Origin: the human T2T-CHM13v2.0 reference genome, Homo sapiens
Length of the DNA: 64,000 bases
Reading direction: 5' to 3' (one strand)
Assembly (NCBI RefSeq): GCF_009914755.1
Contig: NC_060928.1
In this document: positions 10,500 through 24,660 of the stretch, one piece after another
How positions within the stretch are numbered: the first letter of the stretch is position 1
Layout: every line of letters begins with the position of its first letter
Position numbers and translations under genes: made by a program
The notes under the pieces: generated by a model
Databases searched by the model: none
Told to the model about the DNA's origin: nothing
Seen by the model: only the letters and a program-made list of their open reading frames with translations

Positions 10500-11606
10500 C
10501 TGCTTTTATATTTAATTGGCTCCTGTGGACAACAATTTTCTGCAAATTCCTTAATTCTTCTAGAGGCACTGCTCTTTCTCAATGCCCCAGTTTCTCACAA
10601 CCTCTCCCTGAACAAAGGAGAGCCGTATAATTAGTCCCCCAATCTTTACCAAATAAGAATGCTTCATACATACTGTCAAGGAATGGGGGGTATGTAGGGA
10701 ATTATAAGAGCAACTTCAGGATACTTTTAATAGAGATATTTGATTTGACTGTAAACACTTGATATGAATAAAATACTACAATTTTCCACACAGAATTCTA
10801 GAGGTGATTGAAGAATATCTAAGCAATATTTTTTTGGTGGGAGATAGTTAAAGAATACCTCACTACCAGAGGGAAATGGTAACTGAGTTTGAGTTTAATT
10901 AGGCAAAAGTAATATTTTGGAGAGCTGTTCAATGGTGGTAGAGAACATGGTATAAGTAAAGCCAAACAGGAAGAAAAGACTAGTGAGTTATATTTTTGAA
11001 CCACTCAAAAATTTTGATGTTGCTAATGCGTATCATATAATTTAAGCAGATAGGATACTAAAATAACAAAAGTCTTGTATTATTGAAGATTTTCTGTCAT
11101 TTGTTAAATAGAAAAATATATTCAAATATTTGGTTAAATTCTTCTGGTAATTATTTGGATGATTCATTTGAGATTGACAAGATAAAAGTAATGCAGGTAT
11201 TTCTCATAGATACCTATTAGAATCCTTAGTATGACTCAATACTTGTGAACTATACACAGAGAAAAAGATAATACAATTACGGGGACATAGAGAAATAAAG
11301 AAGGGAAGAATTCTCCAAATGAAGAATAGACGTTTAAAAAATTAAGCAAGTTATAGTTTCAATTACAACTGAAAATACATTTTTCCTATTTTAAAAATAT
11401 TATAAATGAATTTTCATCTTGATTAATGCCAGGGATAGGAGTAATTTCTTTATAAATATTAAAGCATAATATATTGCTCAATATAAAAAGAAGATGAATT
11501 CATTTATGTTCTCTGTAAAAGAATGCTTTTGTTGAAAAGTGTTGCCTTTCCATGTCTAATGATAATTTCATTTATACAAGGCCACACTATTAATACAATC
11601 AACAAA

Positions 11607-11979
11607 TGATATTGTTTGGATGTGTCCCCACTCAAATCTCATCTTGAGTTGTAGTTCCCATAATCCCCTCATATCATGGGAGGGACTTGGCAGGAGGTAA
11701 TTGAAAAATGGGGGCAATTCCCCCTTGCTATTCCTGTGATAGTAAGTTCTCATGAGATCTGATGGTTATATAAGGGGCTTTCCCTTTTGCTCAGTTCTCG
11801 GTCTTCTCCTTGCTGCCACCATGTGAAGAAGGAAGTATTTGTTTTCCCTTCTCCCATGATTGTAAGTTTCCAGAGGCCTCTACAGCCTTGCTGAACTGTG
11901 AGTCAATTAGACCTCTGTCCTTTATAAATAACCCAGTCTTGGGTATGTCTTTATAGCAGGGTGAAAACAGACTAATACC
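11607..11979 (+). mobile_element. THE1 5' LTR
   Basis: 'tgatattgtttggatgtgtccccactcaaatctcatcttga' to 'gaaaacagactaatac'; directly followed by internal sequence. Confidence 0.9.
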
Positions 11980-13342
11980 GTAAATTGGTACCACAGAGAG
12001 TGCTGCTGCTATAAAAATACCCGAAAATGTGGAAGACACTTTGGAACTGGGTAACTGGCAGAGGCTGGAACCATTTGAAGGGCTCAGGAGAAGATAGGAA
12101 AATGTGAGAAAGTTTGGAGCTTCCTGAAGACTTGTTGAATGGCTTTTATTAAAATGCTGAGAGTGATATGGACAATAAAGTCAGTGCTGAGGTAGTCTCA
12201 GATGGAGATGAGATACTTGTTAAGAACTGCATTAGCAAAAAGACTGGCAGCAATTTGCCCTGGTCGTAGAGGTCTGTGGGTCTTTGAACTTGAGACAGAT
12301 GATTTAGGGTATCTGCCAGAAGAAATTTATAGGCAGCAAAGTGTTCAAGAGGAAGCAGAGCATACAAGTCTGAAGAATTTGCAGCCTGATGATGAAATAA
12401 AAAATAAACACTCATCTTCTGGGGAGAAATTAAAGCCAGCTACAGAAATTTGCATAGTAATGAGGCACCAGATGCTGATCACCAAGACAATGGGGCAAAT
12501 GTCTCCAGGGCGTGTCGGAGACCTCTACGGCAGCCTCTCCTATCACAGGCCCAGAGGTCTAGGAGGAAAAATTGTTTCCTGGGCCAAGCCCAGGTGCCCC
12601 CTGCTCTCTGCAGCCTTGGGCCATGGTGTCCTGTGTCACAGCTGCTTCAGCTTCAGCCATGGATAAGGGGCCAAGGTACAGCTCAGGCCATTGCTACAGA
12701 ATGTGAAATCCCCAAGCCCTGGCAGCTTTCAAGAGGGGCTGGTCCTGCAAGTGTGCAGAAGACAAGGTTGAGGTTTAGGAACCTCTGCCTAGATTTCAGT
12801 GGGTGCATGCAAACACTGGGATATCCAGGCAGAAGTCTGCTGCAGAGGCAGAGCCCTCATGGCAAACCTCTGCTAGGACAGTGGAGATGAGAAATGTGGG
12901 AGCCCCCACACAGAGTTCCCACTGGGACATTGCCTAGTGAAGCTGTGAGAAGAAAGCCACCATCCTCCAGACCACAGAATGATAGATCCACTGCCAGCTT
13001 GCACCATGCATCTGGAAAAAGCTGCAGACACTCAACACCAGCCATGGAAGCAGTAAGGAGGGAGGCTGTACCTTGCAAAGCCACAGGAACAGAGCTGCCC
13101 AACGCTATGGGAGCCCACCTCTTGCATCAGCATGACCTGGATATAAGACATGGAGTCAAAGGAGATTATTTTGGAAATTTAAGGTTAAATGACTGCCGTA
13201 TTGGATTTCAGACTTGCATGGGGACTGTGATTTCTTTGTTTTGGCCACTTTCTCCCATTTGGAGTGGGTGTATTTGCCCCATGCCTATACCCTCATTTTA
13301 TCTAGAAAGTAACTAACTTGATTTTGGTTTTGCAGACTCATA
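11980..13342 (+). mobile_element. THE1 internal region, 3'-truncated (no 3' LTR)
   Basis: 'gtaaattggtacc...cccgaaaatgtggaag...' typical THE1-int; breaks abruptly at 'tttgcagactcata'. Confidence 0.9.
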
Positions 13343-13466
13343 ATAGATAACAGATATAAGACTAATATAGATATTAGAAAATAGATAAAAGATAGATATA
13401 TTAGTCTATATATATCATATTAGACAAATATAGATAATATTAGACTTTGCAGACTCATAATAGATA
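13343..13466. other. Templated patchwork filler at left rearrangement junction
   Basis: Short-motif mosaic; 21-bp tttgcagactcataatagata at 13329-13349 repeated at 13446-13466. Confidence 0.75.
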
Positions 13467-13481
13467 TTGCCCAAAGAGAAA

Positions 13482-13518
<37 letters not shown>

Positions 13519-14408
13519 ATTCAAAAGGAGAATAACAGAGAAATTCCAAAACCTAGAAAAAGATATCAATATTCAAGTATAAGATGGTTATATAATACAA
13601 AGCAGGCATAACCCAAAGAAGGCTACCTCAAGGCATTTAATAATAAAATCCAAAATGGAAAGAATAAAGACAGTATGCTAAAAACAGCAAGAGAAAAGTG
13701 ATAAATAACTTTCAATGGTGACCCATTACATAGAGCAGTAGACCTTTCAGTGGAAACTTTACAGGCCAAGGGAGAGTATCATGGCATATTTAAAGCGCTG
13801 AAGGATAAAAGAAAACTTTTACACTGAAATAAAATATCTGGCGAAAATATCCTTCAAACATTGAAAAGAAATAAAGACTGTCCTGACAAACAAAAGCTAA
13901 AGAACTTCACCAACACCACACCTGTCCTACAAGAAATGATAAAAAGCATTCTTCAATCCAAAGAAAAGGATATTAATGAGCAATAAGAAATCATCTGAAG
14001 GCACAAAACTCACTGGTCATAATTAGGCACACAGAGAAGCACAGAATATTATAATTCTGTTATCGTGGTATATAAACTACCCTTATCTTAAGCAGAAAGG
14101 TGAAAATATAAACGTATCAAAAATAACTACAACTTTTAAAGACATAAGACAGTACAAGAAAATATAAATAGAAACAACAAGTTAAAAAGCAGAAGGACTA
14201 AGTGCAGAGCTTTTATTAGTTTTCCTGTGTTAGACTGCTTGTCTGTTTAAGCCATCAGTGTTATGTTATCATCAGTTCAAAATACTGGGTCATGAAATAT
14301 TATTTGCAAGCATTCCAGTAACCTCAAATCAAAGAATATACAATGGATATGCAAAAAATAAAAAGCAAGAAATTAGAGCATGCCACCAGAGAAACTATCC
14401 ATCACAAA
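13467..14408 (+). mobile_element. L1 (L1MA/L1PB-age) ORF1 3' half and inter-ORF region; (GA)n at ~13487-13515
   Basis: Homologous to the opposite-strand copy at ~26.2-27.15 kb, e.g. 'aaaatatccttcaaacat..aaagaaataaagac..cagacaaacaaaagct'. Confidence 0.85.
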
Positions 14409-15001
14409 AAGGAAGAGAGGTAGGAAGGAAGGAAGGAAAGAAGGAAGGAAGGAAGAAGGGAGGGAGGGAAGTAAGGAGGGAAGGAAGGAAGGAAAAAGGA
14501 AGGAAGGAAGAGGAGGAGGAAGGAGGGAGGAAGGGAGGAAGGAAAGAAGGAAAGAAGGGAGGGAGGGAGAGAGGAAGGGAGGGAGGGAGAGAGGAAGGGA
14601 GGGAGGGAGAGAGGAAGGAAGGAAGGGAAAAAGGAAGGGAGGGAGGGACAGAAGGAGGGAGAGAGAGAGGAAGGAAGGAAGGAAAAGAGGGAAGGAAGGA
14701 AGGAGGGAAGGAAGGAAGGAAAAGAGGGAAGGAAGGAGGGAAGGAAGGAAGGAAGGAAAAAAGGAAGGAAGGAAGAGGAGGAGGAAGGAGGGAGGAAGGG
14801 AGGAAGGAAGAAAAAAGGAAGGAACAGAGGAAGGAAATAAGGAAGAAAGAGGGAAGAACGCAGGAAGGGAGGAGGAAAGGAAGGGAGGGAGGGAGGGAGG
14901 AAGAAAAGAAGGAAGAAGGAAGGAAGGAAGAGAGAGAGGGAGAAGGAAAGAAGGAAAAAGGAGGAAGAAGGGAGGAAGGAAGGAAGGAAAGAAGAAAGGA
15001 A
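14409..15001. repeat. ~590-bp polypurine (GGAA/GGAG) tract
   Basis: Almost pure G/A on the + strand; source of four spurious long ORFs. Confidence 0.97.
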
Positions 15002-16575
15002 GTCAACTGATCTTTGACAAAGCAGACAAAAAATACACTGTGGAAAGGACACAGTATTCAATAAATAGTGCTGGGAAACTGTATATCCTCACGTAGAATA
15101 ATTAAATTTGATCCCTGTTTCTCACCGTAGACAAAAATTACCTGAAGATGGATTGAAAACATAAATCAAAAACCCAAAATGATAAAAATTCTGGAAGAAA
15201 ACCTAGGACAAACTCTTCTGGACATTGGCCTAAGCAAATAATTTATGACTAAGACCCCAAAAGCAAATGTAACAGAAACAAAAATAAATAAATGTGACCT
15301 ATTTAACTTACAAAGCTTCTGCACAGCCAAAGAAGTAATCATGAGCATAAATAGACAGTGTAGAATTGAATAAATTATTTGCAAAGTAGACATTGACAAA
15401 GGAATAATATAAAAAATCCACAAGGAACTAAAATCATCAATTAAAAAAAACTAAATAACTCATTAAAAAGTGGGCAAAGGATGTGATCAGATATTTTCCA
15501 AAGAAAGGTATACAAAAGGCCAACAATCTTATGAAAAAATGTTCAACATCACTACTTATAAAGAAAATGCACATTAAAAAGACAATGAGATACCACCTTG
15601 CCCAGCCACAATGACCATTATTTAAAACGCAAAAAACAATGGATACTGGTGAAGATGTGATGAAAAGGAATGCTTATACAGTGTTAGTGAAATGTAAATT
15701 AGTACAACATTTATGAAAAGCAGTATAAAGATTCCTGAAAAAACTGAAAGCAGATCTACCCTTTGATCCAGCAACATCACTCCTAGGTATCCACCCAAAG
15801 GAAAATAAGTCATGTTATTAAAAAAAAAAAAAGACACCTGTGTGCCTATTTATCATAGCACAATTCACAATTTCAAAGACATGGAATCAACCCCAGTGCC
15901 CATTAGCCAATGAGTGGATAAAGTACTTATTGATATTTACTTTCTTTACTTTAAAAAATGGAGGGACATACCATGTGATATTTATTTCATAGCATGTGTG
16001 TGTGTATGTGTACACACACACACATGCACAAGTTGAATATAGATATATATTTACTTATATATGAGTAAATGTCACATTTGCTCATATATATCACATTTGC
16101 TCATGTATATGAGTAAATATGGTATTCCATGGTATGTGTGTATATGTGTGTATGTGTGTGTGTGTGTACATATATGTATACACACACACTATGGAATACT
16201 ACTCAGCCACACACAAAAAAAACAATATATTTTGCAGCAACTTGGATGTAACTGGAAGCCATCATCTTAAGTGAAGTAACTCGGGAACAGAAAACCAAAT
16301 ACCACATGTTGTCACTTATAAGCAGGAACTAAGCTGTGGGTATGCAAAAGCATACAGAGCGGTGTAACGAACACTGGAGACTCAGAAAGTGGGTAGGTGA
16401 GAGGGGATGAGGGATGAAAGATTGCCTATTGGGTACAATGTACACTGTTTGCATGATAGGTACACACAAAGCCAAGACTTCACAATTCATTCATTCACCC
16501 ATCTATGAAATTCATCCATGTAACCAAAATCCACTAGTATCATTAAAGCTATTGAAATATAAAATAAAATTTAAA
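15001..16575 (+). mobile_element. L1 3' ORF2 and 3' UTR (L1PB-like)
   Basis: 'caactgatctttgacaaagcag...' through 'attcatccatgtaaccaaaatccac...aaagctattgaaat' and A-rich tail. Confidence 0.85.
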
Positions 16576-17421
16576 AAATACATGAAGACACATACAGCTT
16601 AAAGGAAATGATGAATATAAATGTACCATACTAACCTAATAAAAAGAAAATAAGAATAGGTATCTTAATTTTAGACAAAGCAGACATCAAAGCAAGGAAA
16701 GTCAAAAGGATAAATGGCATTACACACTTATAAAGAGACTTCAACTGTGATGATAAATTTATCTATTTCTGATCTCTCTATCAGAAATCAACAGATCCAC
16801 CAGGTAGAAAATCAGAAAAGACAGAATTGAACTCAACAGCACTGTCCCTCAACTGGATGTAATTGACATTTATAAACTACTTCATCCAACAGCAGCAGAA
16901 TATACATTTTCTTCTCAAGTTGGCATGGAACATTCACCAAGATAGGCAACAATTTGGCCCATAAAACCCATCATAACAAAAGTAAAATAATATAAATCAT
17001 ATGTCTTCTCCTAGAACACAATAATATTATACTGGAAATCAGTAACAGAAAATCTCAAAATGCATAGAGGTTAAACGAAACACTTCTAAATAACATATAA
17101 GTAGAAGAAGAAATCTAAGTGTTAGTTGAACACATTATGAACTAAGTGAAAAATGAAAGCACTACTTATCAAAATTAGTAGTATGCAGAGAAAGCAGTGC
17201 TTAAAGGAAAATTGTCACAATGAATGCATATACTGTATTAGAAAAGCAAAAAGATATAAAATTAATAATTTAAAATTTCAACATAGCAAACTAGAAAATA
17301 AAGAGTAAATCCAACCCAAAGTATGCAGGAGAAAATAAATAATAAGAACTATAAGAAAAATCAATAACACTTAAAACTGGAAATCAAGAGAAAATCAACT
17401 CAAATAAAAAGCGAGTACTTT

Positions 17422-17551
17422 ATTTTTTTTCTTTTTTTTATTATTATACTTTAAGTTTTAGGGTACATTTGCACAATGTGCAGGTTAGTTACATATGTAT
17501 ACATGTGACATGCTGGTGCGCTGCACCCACTAACTCGTCATCTAGATGATG
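17422..17551 (-). mobile_element. Very short 5'-truncated young L1 (L1PA2/L1PA3-type 3' end)
   Basis: Reverse strand 'ctagatgacgagttagtgggtgcagcgcaccagcatg...aacttaaagtataata' + poly(A); 16-bp TSD aaaaagcgagtacttt at 17406-17421 and 17552-17567. Confidence 0.92.
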
Positions 17552-19656
17552 AAAAAGCGAGTACTTTAAAAAGATCAATAAAATTGATAAGCTTCTAGTC
17601 AGGCTAACTATGAAAAAATAAAAGAGGTCACAATTTACTAATATCAGAAATGCAGGAGGGAACATCTTTACACATTCCAGGGATATCAAAAGGACAAAGA
17701 AGAAGTACTAAGAATAATTCTATGCCTGCAAATTTGCAAACCTAGATGTAATAACCCAATTTCTTGAAGGACATAATCTTCCAAAATTTACATTAAAATA
17801 GACAATATGCATTGACCTGTATCTATTAAAGAAATTTAATCAATAATGAATAACATTCCAAAACAGAAGGTACCAGGGCCAGATGGGTCAGAGTAAATTC
17901 TAACAAACATTTAAGGAAAAAATTATGCCAATTTTCTATAATATTTTTCAGCAGAAAGAAGCAGAAGAAATACTTCCTAACTCATTCTGAGTCCAGAATT
18001 ACCCTCGTATCAAAACCAGCCAAAGTCATTACAAGAAAACTAGTCTTGAAACACATATGTAAAAACCTAAACAAAATATTAGTAAATTGAATTCAGCAGC
18101 GTATAAGAAGAAATATATACCACAACCGAGTGTGATTCATCCCAGGTATGCAAGCAGACTCAATATTTGCAAATCAAGTAACCATTTCATCAACAGGCAA
18201 AAAATGAGAAAGTGCATGATCACATCAATAAATGCAGAAAAAGCATTTGACAAAACCCAACACACAATCCTAATAAAAACTGTCAGTAAACTTGGAATAG
18301 AGAAAAACTTGGTCAACTTGATAAAGAATATCTACAAAAACCTACAGGGAGCATTAAGCTTAATGGTGAGAAACTAGAGTGTTTTCCCTTAAGATTAGGA
18401 ACAAGGGAAGGATGTCCACTTTTACCACTCCTTTCAACATCATACTGGAAGTCTTAGCTAATTTCCTATGACAAGAGAAGAAAACAAAAGGTATACAGAT
18501 TGAGAAGAAAGAAAACTATTTTGTTTGCAGGTTATATGACTATGTAGAAAATCCAAAATAATTGACAAAAATTTTCTGAAACTTATAATTATAACAAGTT
18601 TGCAGGTTACAATATTAATATACAAATATACATTGCACTTTCCTACATACCAGCAATGAACAAATGGAATTTGCAGTTTCAAATGCATTACGGTTTGTGT
18701 TAACATCCCCAAAAACAAAATACTGAGATAGAATCTAATAAAATATGTATAAAATTTACATAAGGAAAACAAACAAAGATAAGTTTCCTATTACATAAAC
18801 CAAAGAACTAATTAAATGAGGAGAAATTTCATAAGCATGGATAGATTCGATATTTTCATGATGTCAGTTTTTCCCATCTTTATGTATAGACCCAGTGCCA
18901 TTGCCAACAAGTTATTTTGTGAATATTGATAAACTGATTCTGAAGTTTGTATGCAGGGGCAAAAGAGCCAAAATTGCCAACACTATTTTGAAGGAGAAGA
19001 ATAAAGTTGGAGAACTGACACTATAGATTTCAAGACTTACTCTACAGCTATGGTAATCAGGACAGTATGGTGTTGACAAAAGAACAGACAAATATATCAA
19101 CGGAGCAGAAAGCCCAGGAATCTAACCAAATAAATAAGTCAACTGATTTCTGACAAAGAAGCAAAGGCACTGCAATAGAGCAAAAATAGTCTTTTTCACA
19201 AATGGTGCTGAAACAACTAGACAGCTCCACGCAAAAAAAGTAAGTAGAGACACAGACCTTAAACCTTTCACAAAAATTATCTCAGAATAGATTACAGACC
19301 AAAATGGAAAACAAACAAAAAGAAGCTATAAAAGTTTTAGTAGATAACGTAGGATAAACCCTAAGTGACCTTGGAAATGGCAAAGACGTTTTATATATAA
19401 AACCAAAGAAATAATTCACAAAATAATTAATTGATAAGCTGGACTTCATTAAATTAAATATTCTGCTTTGCAAAAGACAATGCCAATATCATGAGAAGAC
19501 AAGGCACAGACTGGGAAAAAATATTTGAAAATACACATCTGATAAAGGACGGCATTCCAAAATATACAAAGATTTCTTAACCTCAACGATAAGAAAGCAA
19601 ACACCTCGATTAAAAAATGGGACAAAGACTTTAACAAGACAAAGACCTTAACAGAC

Positions 19657-20009
19657 TGTATTAGTTCGTTTTCACACTGCTGTAACAAACTTCCCTGAGA
19701 CTGGGTACTTATAAAGGAAAGAGGTTTAATTGACTCACAGTTCCGCCTGTCTGGGAGGCCTCAGGAAACTTACAATCATGGGAGAAGGAGAAGCAGACAC
19801 CTTCTTCACAAGGCAGCCAGAGAAAGAAAACACAAAAGAGGAACTTCCAAACATTTATGAAACCATCAGATCTCATGACAACTCACTAACTATCATGAGA
19901 ACAGAATGGTGGAAACTGCCCCCATGATTCAAACACCTCCCTCCCTCAACATGTGTGGATTACAATTCCAGATAAGATTTGGGTGGGGACACAGAGGCAA
20001 AGCATATCA
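19657..20009 (-). mobile_element. THE1/MST solo LTR inserted in old L1
   Basis: 'tgtattagttcgttttcacactgct...gggtggggacacagaggcaaagcatatca'. Confidence 0.9.
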
Positions 20010-20389
20010 AAGATACCTCATCAAAGAAGATATATGGATGACTAATCAATGTTTGAAAAGATGCTTACATTGTATGTCATCTGAGAATTACAAATTAAAT
20101 CAAATACTAGACTGAGTGGCAAAAATTCAAAACACTGGCAACATCAAATGATAGTGAGAATATGAAACTGGGACTTTAACTCAATGCTATTAGGAATGCA
20201 AAATGGCATTTGGTGGTTTCTTATACAACTAAATAAATATTATCATAGAAATAGCATCTCTACTTCAAGATATTCTAGTGGTCAAATTGAAATTACTTAA
20301 TTTGTAGGGGGAGATTACAGTGCCATAAATGTCAGGAGGGGCCATCTTAGAAGCTGTTTTGCTTAGCATAAACATCCACCTGATCTAAA

Positions 20390-20500
20390 ATATTAGAACC
20401 ATGATAGGGATCTTGTCCATCTTGTCCACCGTTAAATTCTAGGACAGCTTTTGACATGTTGTATGTTCTCAATAAATATGTGATGATTGAATAAATTATT
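20390..20500 (+). mobile_element. L2 3' end
   Basis: 'ccatgatagggatcttgtc...ctcaataaatatgtgatgattgaataaat'. Confidence 0.55.
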
Positions 20501-21439
20501 TAAATACAAATCAATGTGTAACAGCAGAAGTTGGTAGGAAGAAAAGTTATTTGGTCAATGAAGCTATTTCTTCTTTTCTCTTCCTCCTTGTCTTCCTCTT
20601 CTTCTTTTTCAGTTAGAAGAAAGACAAAGTACAACATCAAATTTGCACATGCTTTACCATGATTCTCACCTTTGCATTGTGCGAATTTCTTATCTCATGC
20701 TACTTAAATTTGTTCACGTCATCTTGTATAAATGAGCTCAGAATTGAAAAGTTAATATTTTAAGCAGAATAGTTTATTTTCAGCAAGCTATCTTTTCCAA
20801 TATACTGGCTTTCACATTACAATAAACCATGTAGAAAATATATTTTCTCAACTTCATGGATGTTTGATAACAACATCTCTTATTAACTCTAAAGGTTGAA
20901 TGATGATAAAATCAAGAGCTCTTCAGAGGTTTCTTTAATAGCTTTAGCACCTCAAACACTGGAGTTGTTTATTCATTTTTATGGCAAAATGAAGTTCCAA
21001 AATATCTCTCTGATCTTACATTTAATGCAGCATGTGTTGTAAAGAATCAACTGAGGCTATTTTCTTTTCCTAAAAAGTTAAGATTCCAAAAGGGTAATAT
21101 TAACAAGAATTCCTATATGCATACAAAATAGCAGAATATTATAAGCACTTGCTTCAAAAGGTGGTATCTATAAATGTGGATTCAGTTTTAAATAAATTCA
21201 AATTCTATGTTCATTTCAGTATTTTCTCATCATATGCATGTCATTACTGAGAGATAATGTATTAAAAAGGAAAGAAAGGAAACTTGACACATATTTTTGA
21301 GCTGCTGTATGTTATGTAGTATGGTAGTTTGGGTAAATGTAGTCATCATAACAAAGCTTTGAGTTAGCTACAACTTACGCATCATAGATAAGAAAACTGC
21401 AGCTCAAAAGCGTAACATTTATGAATTAATTTTAAAATA

Positions 21440-22150
21440 ACATCATTTTTATGTGATAGCACTTGGCACAAAATGGTAAACTAGAACAAACACAACTTCT
21501 GCTGTCATAGAGCTTATCATATGGAGACAGTAATAAGACATTATTAGTCAATATACTGTTTAATTACAAGCAATGTTAAGTAGTCTAAAAGAAATGTAAA
21601 CAGTACTACAAGAGCTCAACATAGTTTAGAGGTTAAGGAAGCCCTTGTGAAGATTAGAAAATTGAGTTGAGAGATGGATGTATAGAAGCTAACTATGTAG
21701 AATACAATGGTGGATATAGTCTAGGCATGGAGAGTAGCATGTGGAAAATATGTGTGATGAAATAAAAGCATGTCTTATTCGAAGTTCTCAAAGATATTGT
21801 GGTATTAGAGTCCAGATAATGATGAAGAAAGGTAAAAATTATAAGACTGTATAGGTAAACAAGAAGGAAAACATGCATGTTCCATAGACCAGTTTAAATA
21901 GCATTTTCAGTCATTTTCCTAAGAGAAGAGACATTAATTAAAGGAGCTTAAGCATTAAATAGATTTACACCGAAAATATTATCTCTGTAATTTGGAAGAT
22001 ATCTTGGGGGAAAACAAATTTCAAATCAAGATAGAAATTTCCAAGAAAGTCCAGGCAAAAGCTGATAATATGTTGAAATATGAAAGACACAGAGAAAACA
22101 AATACATATAAAACATATCCAAGTGGTAAAAAAATAGAGCTTGGGAATGA
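21440..22150 (-). mobile_element. L2 fragment, highly diverged
   Basis: GA-rich L2 reverse-strand motifs: 'ctgctgtcatagagcttat', 'gttaaggaagccctt', 'aaagtccaggcaaaagctgata'. Confidence 0.5.
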
Positions 22151-22313
22151 AAAAGGTGAAAGAATTGAGACATCATTTATGATCTATTACATTTATATGT
22201 CATTCATGAGGGATTATGGCGTGTTTGGCATCAAAGTCCTCAACGGATGAGGTGCTTAGAAGTTTGGTAGAATGAAGAAATGAGCAAAGAGAGAGGGACA
22301 TAGAGTTTAATAC

Positions 22314-23699
22314 TTTTTTTATAATTTCCATTTTATTCCAGATTAAAGGGTACATGTGGAGGTTTGTTACATGGGTATATTGCATAATGCTGAGGTTTGG
22401 AGTGCAAATGATCCTTTCACCCAAGTAGTGAGCATAGTAAACAACAGATGATTTTCAGCCTATGCCCCTCTCTCTCCACCCCCTGTCTAGCAGTCCTCAG
22501 TGTCTCTCTTTCTCATCTTCATGTGCATGTGTATTCAGTGTTTTGCTCCCACTTATAAATAAGAACATGTGATATTTGGTTGTCTCTTCTTGCATATATT
22601 CACTTAAGATCCTCCAGCTCCATCCATGTTGCTGCAAAGGACTTGATTTTGTCATTTTTATAGATGAATTGTTTTCCACTGTGTATATGAATCACATTTT
22701 CTTTATCAAATCCACTTTTGAAGGGCACTTAGATTGAGTCTTTGCTATTGTAAATGGCACTGTGATACAGATATGAGTGCATGTGTCTTTTTGATAGAAT
22801 TGTTTTCCTTTGGGTTTATTCCCAATAGTAGAATTGCTGTTTCTAATAAGAGTTCTATTTTAAGTTCTTTGAGAAATCTCCAAATGTCTTTCCACAGTGG
22901 CTGAATTAGTTTGCATTCCCACGAAGACCGTATAAGCAGTCCTTTCACTCCAAGCCTCACCAGTATCTGCTATTTTTTGACTTTTTAATCAGCCCCACTC
23001 TGACTGATGTGAGATGGTATCTCATTGTGGATTTTATTTGATTTATCTTATGATTAGTGACGTTGAGCTGGTTTTTATGTTTTTTGGCCACTTGTACATC
23101 TTGTTTTGAGAACTGTCTGCTCATGTTCTTTTCCTGTTTTTATATTGGATTATCTGCTTTTTTTTCTTGTTGACATATTTATGTTCCTTGTGGATTCTGG
23201 ACAGTATTAGACTTCTGTCAGATGCGTAGTTGCAAATATTTTCACCCATTCTGTAGGTGTCTGTTTAATATATTGGTAGCTTATTTTGCTATGCTGAAGC
23301 TTTTTATTTTAATTAGGTCCCACTTGTCAATTCTTGTTTTTGTTGCAATTGCTACTGAGGACTTAGCCATAAATTCTTTGCCAAAGCCAATGTCAAGAAG
23401 GGTATTCCCTAGTTTTCTTCTAGAATTTTTATAGTTTTATGTCTACATTTAAATCTTTAACCCATCTTCAGTTAATTCTTGTGTATGGTGAGAGGGGTCT
23501 AGTTTCATCTTGTGCATATGGCTAGCCAGTTATCACAACACCATGTATTAAATAGGCAGGCATTTCCCCCATTGCTTGTTTTTTTCAATTTTGTCATATA
23601 TTAGATGATTGTATGTGTGTGGCCTTATTTCTGGGTTCTCTATTCTGTCTCATTGGACTATGTGTCTGCTTTTGTACTAGCACCATGTTGCTTTGGTTA
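22314..23699 (-). mobile_element. L1PA15/16-like 3' end, broken within ORF2
   Basis: T-tract then 'gggtacatgtggaggtttgttacatgggtatattgcataatgctgagg'; ends abruptly at 'caccatgttgctttggtta'. Confidence 0.88.
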
Positions 23700-23816
23700 T
23701 GAGTCTATTATTATGAGTCTATTATCTATATTAGATATAAATGTATCTAATATATATTTATATATATTAGTCTATATATAGACTTTTCTATAAATTCTAA
23801 TAGTCTATTATGAGTC
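23700..23816. other. Templated patchwork filler at right rearrangement junction
   Basis: Three copies of ttatgagtc (reverse complement of the THE1 break end) plus motifs shared with the 13343-13466 filler. Confidence 0.75.
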
Positions 23817-24280
23817 AGATAATTTTTTTAGATCTTGTAGGCATGATTCATTGTCTTTTATTCTTTTTCATTTCTCATCTTTCAAGTGTGTATTTTTAGA
23901 TAGTCTGTCTTCAGGGTCACTAATTCTTTCCTCTGCTAGATCAGTTCTCCCATTAAGAGATTAATGCATTCTTCAGTATGCCAGTGGCATTAATCTACTC
24001 CAGAATTTCAGCTTGACTTTTAAAAATTATTTCAATTTTTGTGTTAAATTTATCTGATAGATTACTGAATTTCTTCTCTGTATTATTTTTAATTTCTTTG
24101 AGTTTCCCCCAAACAGCTGTTTTGAATTATCTGTTTGAAAATTCAAATTTCCTTCTCTCCAGAATTGGTCCCTACTGCCATATTTAGTTTGTTTGATGAA
24201 TTCATATTGTCCTAGATGGTCTTGATGCTTGTGAATGTTCTTTGGTATCTGGGTGTTGTTCATTGGTGTCTGGGCATTTT
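23817..24280 (-). mobile_element. L1 ORF1 5' half (partner of the 13467 fragment)
   Basis: Homologous to 27175-27610 of the neighbouring L1, e.g. shared 'atgcattcttcagtatgcca'. Confidence 0.85.
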
Positions 24281-24464
24281 CTGCAAGGGATTCAGTGATG
24301 TGAAGACACAAGTGTTGAAGATCCCTTAGTAAAAAAATGGTGTACACCCAGTATGGTGCCCACTGCTACAGCTCAAGCACAGGGAGGAGTTAGAGGGACC
24401 TTGTGTGAGCAAGGTAATGTTCTCAAGAAAAGTGGATGTCCACTTTTACCACTTCTTTCAACAT

Positions 24465-24660
24465 CCATTGCACTCTAGCCTAGGTGACAAGAGCAAGACT
24501 CTGTCTCAAAAAAAAATAAAGGAAGGAAGGAAGGAGAGAGAGAGAGAGAGAGAGAGAGAAGGAAAGAAAGAGAAAGAAAGAAAAGAAAAAGACAGAAAGA
24601 AAGAAAAGAAAGAAAGGAAGAAAGAAAAGAAGAAAGGAAGGAAGACAGGAAGAGAAAAGA
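24465..24660 (+). mobile_element. Alu 3'-terminal fragment (~45 bp) with expanded GA/GAAA tail
   Basis: 'ccattgcactctagcctaggtgacaagagcaagactctgtctc' + A-run + (GA)n/(GAAA)n; no TSD found. Confidence 0.8.

What the first reader, a model, noticed from the sequence alone, without database searches (positions are those of the whole stretch)
13343..23816. Two junction fillers 10 kb apart are built from the same short templates
Seen: filler A (13343-13466) and filler B (23700-23816) share three motifs. (1) gactcataataga at 13335-13347 and 13452-13464, with its reverse complement at 23804-23816 and partial copies at 23697 and 23710. (2) An identical same-strand 19-mer atatattagtctatatata at 13396-13414 and 23762-23780. 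(3) An inverted 13-mer aatatagataata at 13427-13439 vs 23720-23732. The 'gactcata' word is the THE1-int broken end, yet it appears three times at the distant junction. Established: iterative short templated insertions are hallmarks of polymerase-theta end joining and microhomology-mediated template switching. Inference: both junctions were synthesised in one event in which the ends repeatedly copied each other, leaving a germline fossil of unusually long (~120 bp) cross-junction patchwork synthesis.
Basis: partly seen in the sequence, partly recalled or inferred. Interest (0 to 1): 0.85.

Follow-up and report, generated by a model that had tools for sequence, protein, structure and literature searches.

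The report
Inversion junctions sharing AT-rich patchwork filler
Two AT-rich stretches about 120 bases long sit at the two ends of a roughly 10-kb inverted piece of human chromosome 4 and are built from the same short words, which makes them a real but functionally neutral scar of an error-prone DNA repair event of a known kind.

Summary
All claimed motifs are at the stated coordinates. The two fillers share far more words than shuffles or real AT-rich DNA do.

Both fillers lie at rearrangement junctions. THE1-int homology stops at 13342-13347 in all 39 other copies scored. The L1 piece right of filler A (13466-14443, +) and the L1 piece right of filler B (23824-24251, -) are neighbours in L1 coordinates, with about 28 nt missing, but lie on opposite strands. 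This fits a ~10.4-kb inversion and not twin priming.

The specific link is the word AGACTCATAA(TAGAT), which starts as the THE1 broken end. Exact copies of it abut all three foreign DNA ends. The AT-rich cores resemble ordinary AT-rich low-complexity DNA found genome-wide. They do not behave as diverged duplicates: 4 transitions against 13 transversions, as random pairing would give.

Best reading (0.45): one microhomology-driven, template-switching repair event that combined a deletion and an inversion. The enzyme cannot be inferred. Rivals are a pre-existing AT-rich array cut by a staggered break (0.27) and a staggered-break inverted duplication (0.12). No primate outgroup was available, so the timing is open. 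This is a known kind of event in a gene desert, of modest interest.

The parts
11605..13343 (+). THE1-type element: 5' LTR (11605-11978) and internal part, truncated at about 13343. Its last ~150 nt and its 3' LTR are missing.
   Evidence: other copies align up to 13342 (32 of 39), and none aligns past 13347. In other copies a GC-normal tail and then the LTR follow. No such tail is found in the window or in the 10 kb on either side, except as part of separate complete elements.
13329..13348 (+). Source copy of the 20-nt word TTTGCAGACTCATAATAGAT. Its first 14-15 nt are THE1-int and its last 5-6 nt are not.
13343..13465 (+). Filler A: 81% A+T, made of degenerate 20- and 31-nt tandem units, ending in a second exact copy of the 20-nt word (13446-13465).
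13466..14443 (+). L1 piece M (second half of ORF1 into the start of ORF2), sense on the + strand. It contains a (GA)15 run at 13485-13515 that grew from a natively GA-rich L1 stretch.
   Evidence: reference L048 positions 1700-2641. The alignment shows homology starting at ATTGCCC (13466). TRF result.
22315..23699 (-). L1 3' piece T (end of ORF2, 3' UTR and a short poly-A at about 22315), antisense on the + strand. Its 5' end abuts filler B with a 3-nt overlap (TAA).
23700..23822 (+). Filler B: 82% A+T. It carries three inverted copies of the THE1-end word (23697-23706, 23709-23720, 23804-23816). The first two form a perfect 14-nt tandem repeat (2.1 copies). Six nt of unassigned sequence (23817-23822) lie next to L1 piece P.
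23824..24251 (-). L1 piece P (first half of ORF1), antisense on the + strand. In L1 coordinates it ends about 28 nt before M begins.
   Evidence: reference L048 positions 1206-1626.
13396..13414 (+). The 19-nt word shared on the same strand with 23762-23780.
13427..13439 (+). The 13-nt word shared in inverted orientation with 23720-23732.
   Evidence: Not significant on its own among AT-rich arrays.

Best explanation
The two stretches are the two novel junctions of a single complex rearrangement. That event inverted about 10.4 kb (13466-23699), removed the 3' part of a THE1 element at one breakpoint, and removed about 28 nt of an L1 ORF1 at the other. At each junction about 120 nt of AT-rich DNA was laid down as a patchwork of short words, copied in direct and inverted orientation and seeded by the THE1 broken end (AGACTCATAA...). 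This points to microhomology-mediated, template-switching repair, either alternative end joining or replicative MMBIR/FoSTeS.

Shown: the inversion, the truncations, the word sharing, and exact copies of the end word against all three foreign ends.

Inferred: that both fillers were made in the same event as the inversion, and that they were made by a template-switching polymerase. The enzyme cannot be named from the sequence.
For: 1. One break split one L1. P ends and M begins about 28 nt apart in L1 coordinates, on opposite strands and 10.4 kb apart, with arrows converging.
2. THE1-int stops at 13342-13347 in all 39 other copies scored. Its tail and 3' LTR are absent from the window and from the 10 kb on each side. 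The DNA beyond T's poly-A is neither THE1 nor AT-rich. The THE1|T adjacency implied before the inversion is therefore itself unnatural. One deletion-plus-inversion event explains this without a second hit at the same spot.
3. Exact copies of the THE1-end word lie directly against each foreign end: 20 nt against M (13446-13465), 13 nt 6 nt from P (23804-23816), and 10 nt overlapping T by TAA (23697-23706).
4. The 20-nt repeat includes 5-6 nt that are not THE1. It was therefore copied after the first junction sequence existed, which implies stepwise synthesis.
5. Words of 12 nt or more shared with the other filler cover 52% of each filler, against a maximum of 23% in 500 shuffles. They occur in both orientations.
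6. Mismatches between aligned filler A and the reverse complement of filler B (rcB) are 4 transitions to 13 transversions. This equals the random-pairing expectation (0.24) and differs from the 0.53 seen in true repeat homologues of the same window (Fisher p = 0.025). Exact words are thus separated by non-homologous sequence, not by decayed duplicate sequence.
7. No copy of the end word shows an internal mismatch.
Against: 1. Apart from the THE1-end word, no flank acts as a template above background. Matches of 8-11 nt to the four 300-nt flanks are as frequent as matches to random 300-nt window pieces (about 80% of those have a match of 8 nt or more, about 20% one of 10 nt or more). THE1-tail words are not enriched.
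2. The cores look like ordinary AT-rich low-complexity DNA. Each filler matches dozens of unrelated AT-rich arrays at 73-86% identity, and neither filler was listed among the other's hits in those searches.
3. Similarity within a filler equals similarity between the fillers, as expected for two halves of one older array.
4. The degenerate units (75-80% alike) are too dissimilar to be polymerase error alone.
5. From my own knowledge, fillers of 120 nt at both junctions are far longer than typical templated insertions.
6. No outgroup was available, so the timing is untested.
Confidence: 0.45

Rival explanations
1. An AT-rich degenerate tandem array of about 240 nt, grown earlier from the THE1 end word, already lay between THE1-int and L1 piece T. 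The inversion breakpoint fell inside it with a 13-14-nt staggered cut. Filler A and the reverse complement of filler B are simply its two halves.
For: Joining filler A to the reverse complement of filler B places every copy of the end word in one orientation. It also gives a perfect 15-nt tandem repeat (1.9 copies) at the join, like the perfect 14-nt tandem repeat (2.1 copies) at the T end. Filler A is itself a degenerate tandem array. Similarity within a filler equals similarity between them. Similar AT-rich arrays are common in the genome. The transition/transversion result is also expected for different parts of one low-complexity array.
Against: This needs two rearrangements at the same 240 nt, because the THE1|array|T junction is already a deletion junction. 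It needs the cut to fall inside one 13-nt word, roughly 5-10% of the array (my estimate). It does not explain why all copies of the end word are perfect while the rest of the array is degenerate.
Confidence: 0.27
2. This is a staggered-break (or replicative dup-INV) inverted duplication. One AT-rich stretch of about 120 nt at the THE1 breakpoint was duplicated to both ends of the inverted segment, as described for Drosophila inversions, and the two copies then diverged.
For: Filler A and the reverse complement of filler B align colinearly over about 115 nt. The local score is 64 against a null of 31 +/- 4.7 (0 of 1000 shuffles reach it), better than the direct orientation (score 43, reached by 23 of 1000). 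Ranz et al. [quoted passage not shown]
Against: The mismatches have the spectrum of random pairing, not of substitution decay (4 transitions to 13 transversions). There are 14 gap columns. The 19-nt central block lies in the opposite orientation to the rest. Perfect end words next to cores that are about 62% identical would need very uneven decay. The colinearity may only reflect a shared unit type.
Confidence: 0.12
3. There was no single event. Two unrelated AT-rich low-complexity stretches and two unrelated L1 fragments happen to resemble each other.
For: AT-rich arrays share long words easily (filler B shares 19-mers or longer with 15 of 231 AT-rich 120-mers). Folding of either filler is not above shuffles.
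Against: GACTCATAATA has 4 exact copies in 64 kb, all in the fillers. The 20-mer has only these two exact copies in 3.1 Gb. None of 2000 shuffles reaches the observed number of shared 10-mers. L1 pieces P and M end within about 30 nt of each other in a 6-kb element.
Confidence: 0.03

Closest known systems
Templated or 'filler' insertions at junctions made by alternative end joining (polymerase theta) or by replicative template switching (MMBIR/FoSTeS) in complex germline structural variants
   Same: The insertions lie exactly at the novel junctions. There are copies of a break-proximal word in direct and inverted orientation, overlaps of 1-3 nt at boundaries, and an accompanying deletion plus inversion. 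Porubsky et al. (bioRxiv 10.1101/2021.12.20.472354; passages read) report that 51 of 183 balanced human inversions lack flanking repeats. Of those, 23 carry adjacent deletions or insertions larger than 50 bp, which the authors ascribe to Alt-NHEJ, MMEJ or MMBIR.
   Different: Each filler is about 120 nt long. Only one template (the THE1 end) can be identified. Most of the filler is degenerate AT-rich sequence with no detectable source.
Inverted duplications flanking inversions, from staggered breaks (Ranz et al. 2007, PMC1885836)
   Same: The related sequence lies in inverted orientation at both ends of the inverted segment. Its size falls within the reported range (46 bp to 1.9 kb), and the duplication comes from only one breakpoint.
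   Different: The two copies here do not behave as diverged duplicates. No single-copy ancestral state could be examined.
Ordinary AT-rich simple or low-complexity repeats
   Same: The composition is 81-82% A+T, the units are degenerate tandem repeats, and there are many 73-86% matches to such arrays elsewhere in the genome.
   Different: The fillers carry five exact copies of a G/C-bearing word derived from the neighbouring THE1 end, and they sit precisely at two rearrangement junctions.
L1 5' inversion by twin priming
   Same: Two adjoining L1 segments lie in opposite orientation, with a small deletion between them.
   Different: The segments point towards each other and are 10.4 kb apart, with non-L1 DNA between them. 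Twin priming gives adjacent segments that point apart (the geometry is from my own knowledge; the coordinates are).

Membership tests
Templated-insertion junction (alt-EJ / MMBIR type) | Extra sequence lies exactly between two DNA ends that were not neighbours before | tested here: met
   Filler A lies between the truncated THE1-int and L1 piece M. Filler B lies between L1 pieces T and P.
Templated-insertion junction (alt-EJ / MMBIR type) | Inserted segments are copies of sequence near the breaks, in direct or inverted orientation | tested here: inconclusive
   Met for the THE1-end word, with 4 extra exact copies of 10-20 nt. Not met for the other roughly 60-70% of the fillers: matches to the flanks are at background, the THE1 tail is not enriched, and there is no genomic source.
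Templated-insertion junction (alt-EJ / MMBIR type) | Microhomology at the segment and flank boundaries | tested here: inconclusive
   There is a 3-nt overlap (TAA) at T, a 1-nt overlap at M, and none clear at P, where 6 nt are unassigned (sequence). Overlaps this short are weak evidence in AT-rich DNA.
Templated-insertion junction (alt-EJ / MMBIR type) | The fillers arose in the same event as the rearrangement | not testable with these tools
   No primate or other human assembly is on hand. The genome search reports no relatives for this genome.
Staggered-break inverted duplication | Two inverted copies at the ends of the inverted segment that are homologous along their whole length | tested here: inconclusive
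   The colinear alignment is significant. However, the mismatch spectrum equals random pairing and one block is flipped.
Staggered-break inverted duplication | The sequence is single-copy in the uninverted ancestor | not testable with these tools
   No outgroup is available.
NAHR between inverted repeats | Long, highly identical inverted repeats that pre-date the inversion, with intact flanks | tested here: not met
   The repeats are about 120 nt long and align at about 72% with gaps. One L1 is split exactly at the filler boundaries.
L1 twin-priming inversion | The inverted 5' piece lies directly upstream of the sense 3' piece, inside one insertion | tested here: not met
   The pieces are 10.4 kb apart and converge.
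Dispersed repeat or mobile element with terminal inverted repeats | Other copies exist elsewhere in the genome | tested here: not met
   Only AT-rich low-complexity matches were found. The 20-mer is unique to this locus. The first 10 nt of the would-be terminus are THE1-int sequence.

The most novel reading that the evidence does not exclude
A single germline repair event joined four DNA ends while a template-switching polymerase laid down about 120 nt at each junction. It re-used the same 10-20-nt THE1 end word at every foreign end. All ends would then have been held in one repair complex, and the filler of one junction would have served as template for the other. That would make this an unusually long natural record of iterative cross-junction synthesis in the human lineage.
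Probability: 0.35. Interest if true: 0.5.

Novelty: new member of a known kind. Interest (0 to 1): 0.3.

Why it matters
If both fillers were made in the inversion event, this locus is a rare fixed example of how far iterative, microhomology-primed synthesis can run in the germline: about 120 nt, twice. It would also show that a word from one broken end can be used at a junction which that end does not join. That bears on whether complex deletion-inversion variants arise by end joining of simultaneous breaks or by serial template switching. The region is a gene desert (hub annotation: two pseudogenes elsewhere in the window, and no genes within 100 kb), so no functional consequence is expected.

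Tried and rejected
1. The missing THE1 3' LTR is not the inverted LTR at 19655-20009. That one is a separate solo LTR inside an old L1, flanked by L1 sequence on both sides.
2. The THE1 tail found 0.6 kb left of the window belongs to a separate complete THE1, only about 76% identical to ours.
3. The THE1 tail is not a hidden template. Hits of 8- and 9-mers are no more frequent than for 28 control segments.
4. Flanks as templates: matches are at background level except for the THE1 end.
5. A target-site duplication for L1 piece T: the 15 nt after its poly-A have no partner in the window.
6. Hairpin or palindrome (PATRR-like) character: folding z-scores are -0.65 and -0.63, not above shuffles.
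7. The end word as part of L1 at either L1 break: alignments to 3-5 reference copies show only weak similarity past the breaks.
8. The end word as a native variant of a repeat family: the near-matches elsewhere are unrelated loci.
9. The (GGAA)n at 14402-15000 and the repeat at 24463-24660 are not related duplications. The second is an Alu tail followed by a purine-rich simple repeat.
10. Twin priming, NAHR and a transposon with terminal inverted repeats are rejected in the membership test.
Only 10 kb on each side was examined, so a displaced THE1 tail further away is not excluded.
Full report
**What is there.** Filler A (13343-13465) and filler B (23700-23822) are 81% and 82% A+T.
GACTCATAATAGA lies at 13335 and 13452, and inverted at 23804. 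AGACTCATAATA is inverted at 23709 and AGACTCATAA at 23697. A same-strand 19-mer lies at 13396 and 23762, and an inverted 13-mer at 13427 and 23720.
- Further shared words of 11-12 nt exist in inverted orientation.
- The direct repeat in A is in fact 20 nt long (13329-13348 and 13446-13465). These are the only exact copies in the 3.1-Gb assembly. There are 17 near-matches with 2 mismatches, and all 6 that were inspected are unrelated DNA.

**Is it more than chance?** Yes.
- The fillers share 23 10-mers against a mean of 3.1 in dinucleotide shuffles (0 of 2000 reach 23). A shared 19-mer occurs in 1 of 2000 shuffles.
- Against 231 real AT-rich 120-mers the maximum is 18 shared 10-mers. Most of those 120-mers came from loci chosen as the genome's best matches to the fillers.
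- Words of 12 nt or more shared with the other filler cover 52% of each filler. The shuffle means are 2-3% and the shuffle maximum is 23% in 500 shuffles.
- The caveat is that AT-rich arrays share long words easily. Shared 13-mers occur in about a fifth of the comparisons, and B shares 19-mers or longer with 15 of 231.
- The specific link is therefore the G/C-bearing word GACTCATAATA. It has four exact copies in 64 kb, all in the fillers.

**Surroundings.**
- Left of A is a THE1-type element, with its LTR at 11605-11978 and internal part up to about 13343. Of the 39 other genomic copies scored, 32 stop aligning at 13342 and none passes 13347.
- In those copies a GC-normal tail of about 150 nt and then the 3' LTR follow. 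That tail and LTR are absent from the window. An inverted LTR at 19655-20009 is a separate solo LTR inside an old L1. A THE1 tail just left of the window belongs to a separate complete element that is only about 76% identical.
- Right of A, L1 ORF1 sequence begins at 13466 on the + strand (piece M).
- Left of B is an L1 3' piece on the - strand (T, 22315-23699), with its poly-A at about 22315 followed by DNA that is neither THE1 nor AT-rich.
- Right of B is L1 ORF1 sequence on the - strand (P, 23824-24251).
- In the coordinates of five reference L1 copies, P ends and M begins about 28 nt apart, yet they lie 10.4 kb apart on opposite strands and point towards each other. That is the signature of one break in one L1 followed by inversion of 13466-23699. 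It is not the geometry of twin priming.
- Undoing the inversion puts the truncated THE1-int next to the 5' end of T. This is not a natural insertion junction, so the THE1 tail, its LTR and whatever followed them were lost either in the same event or in an earlier one.

**Anatomy of the fillers.**
- The end word starts as native THE1-int. The neighbouring independent THE1 also reads AGACTCATAA at this position.
- The 20-nt repeat carries 5-6 further nt that are not THE1, so the second copy was made from an already extended end.
- Exact copies of the word lie directly against M (20 nt), 6 nt from P (13 nt), and overlapping T by TAA (10 nt, preceded by a 12-nt copy in a perfect 14-nt tandem repeat).
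- Between the end words, A is a degenerate tandem array with 20- and 31-nt units that are 75-80% alike.
- A and the reverse complement of B (rcB) align colinearly. The local score is 64 against a null of 31 +/- 4.7 (0 of 1000 shuffles reach it), better than the direct orientation (score 43).
- That alignment consists of exact words separated by poorly matching stretches. Its 17 mismatches are 4 transitions and 13 transversions. This is the random-pairing expectation (0.24), against 0.53 for true repeat homologues in the same window (p = 0.025). It also has 14 gap columns, and the 19-mer block lies in the opposite orientation to the rest.
- Similarity between the halves of one filler equals similarity between the two fillers.
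- Neither filler folds better than shuffles.
- Genome-wide, each filler matches only other AT-rich low-complexity arrays, at 73-86% identity (20 and 59 matches listed). No source locus exists.
- Matches to the four flanks are at background level except for the THE1 end. Words from the missing THE1 tail are not enriched.

**Explanations.** Three readings fit.
- (a) One complex event. A deletion plus an inversion occurred, and at each junction a template-switching process laid down a patchwork seeded by the THE1 end. This needs only one rearrangement. It explains why perfect end words sit at all three foreign ends, why the 20-mer includes non-THE1 bases, and why the cores are not decayed duplicates. 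Against it, about two thirds of the filler has no identifiable template, the cores look like ordinary AT-rich repeats, and (from my own knowledge) 120 nt at each junction is far longer than typical templated insertions.
- (b) A pre-existing AT-rich array of about 240 nt between THE1-int and T, cut by a 13-14-nt staggered break. Joining A to rcB puts all end words in one orientation and creates a perfect 15-nt tandem repeat at the join. However, this needs two rearrangements at one spot and a cut inside one short word.
- (c) A staggered-break inverted duplication of a 120-nt array, as in Drosophila (PMC1885836; abstract and passages). The mismatch spectrum and the flipped block disfavour it.
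- I put these at 0.45, 0.27 and 0.12, with 0.03 for coincidence and the rest unassigned. Polymerase theta as such cannot be inferred.

**Comparison with what is known.**
- Inversions without flanking repeats that carry adjacent insertions or deletions larger than 50 bp are documented in humans. Of 183 sequence-resolved balanced inversions, 23 were of this kind and were ascribed to Alt-NHEJ, MMEJ or MMBIR (bioRxiv 10.1101/2021.12.20.472354; passages read).
- Templated insertions linked to MMBIR and to polymerase theta appear in the listing, which I did not read further.
- This locus is therefore a new member of a known kind. It is notable for the length of the fillers and for the re-use of one end word at both junctions.
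- I found no way to date the event. The absence of any internal mismatch in the end-word copies suggests, weakly, that it is not very old.
- No supplementary files were consulted. Published inversion call sets might already list this locus.

**Verdict.** Interest is modest (0.3). The decisive test is the orthologous sequence in a primate that lacks the inversion.

Noticed in passing
window 13485-13515: A perfect (GA)15.5 run inside L1 ORF1. Reference L1 copies have a natively GA-rich stretch at this position, so this is a microsatellite that grew out of coding sequence.
   Followed up: partly
window 14402-15000: About 600 nt of (GGAA)n-type purine repeat sits between L1 positions ~2641 and ~5349 (reference L048 coordinates) on the + strand. 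It appears to replace about 2.7 kb of L1 interior, if the two L1 parts belong to one element.
   Followed up: partly
window 19655-20009 (-): A solo THE1-type LTR lies inside an old L1 3' region, with L1 sequence on both sides and a probable short target duplication. It is unrelated to the truncated THE1 at 11605-13343.
   Followed up: partly
window 15000-16330 (+) and 22541-23699 (-): Two L1 3' ends that start within about 90 nt of the same L1 position lie in inverted orientation inside the inverted segment. They are 70-89% complementary in blocks. They were not tested for any role in the rearrangement.
   Followed up: no
window 24463-24660: An Alu 3' end with a poly-A tail that has turned into a purine-rich (AAGG / GA / GAAA) simple repeat. 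It is followed by a 4.1-kb antisense L1 (24664-28811) that covers the same L1 positions as P and M, and so is a different element.
   Followed up: partly
L008 (G000:C7:16013201-16013291 region): An AT-rich stretch just upstream of an L1 ORF2 start contains the palindrome AGACTAATATAT/ATATTAGTCT and shares a 21-nt word with filler B. Words of the same kind thus arise independently elsewhere.
   Followed up: partly
L061:7427-9925 (2-4.6 kb left of the window start): A complete, independent THE1 element, about 76% identical to the one in the window. At the position homologous to the break its internal part reads AGACTCATAA, so the first 10 nt of the shared word are a natural THE1 variant.
   Followed up: yes
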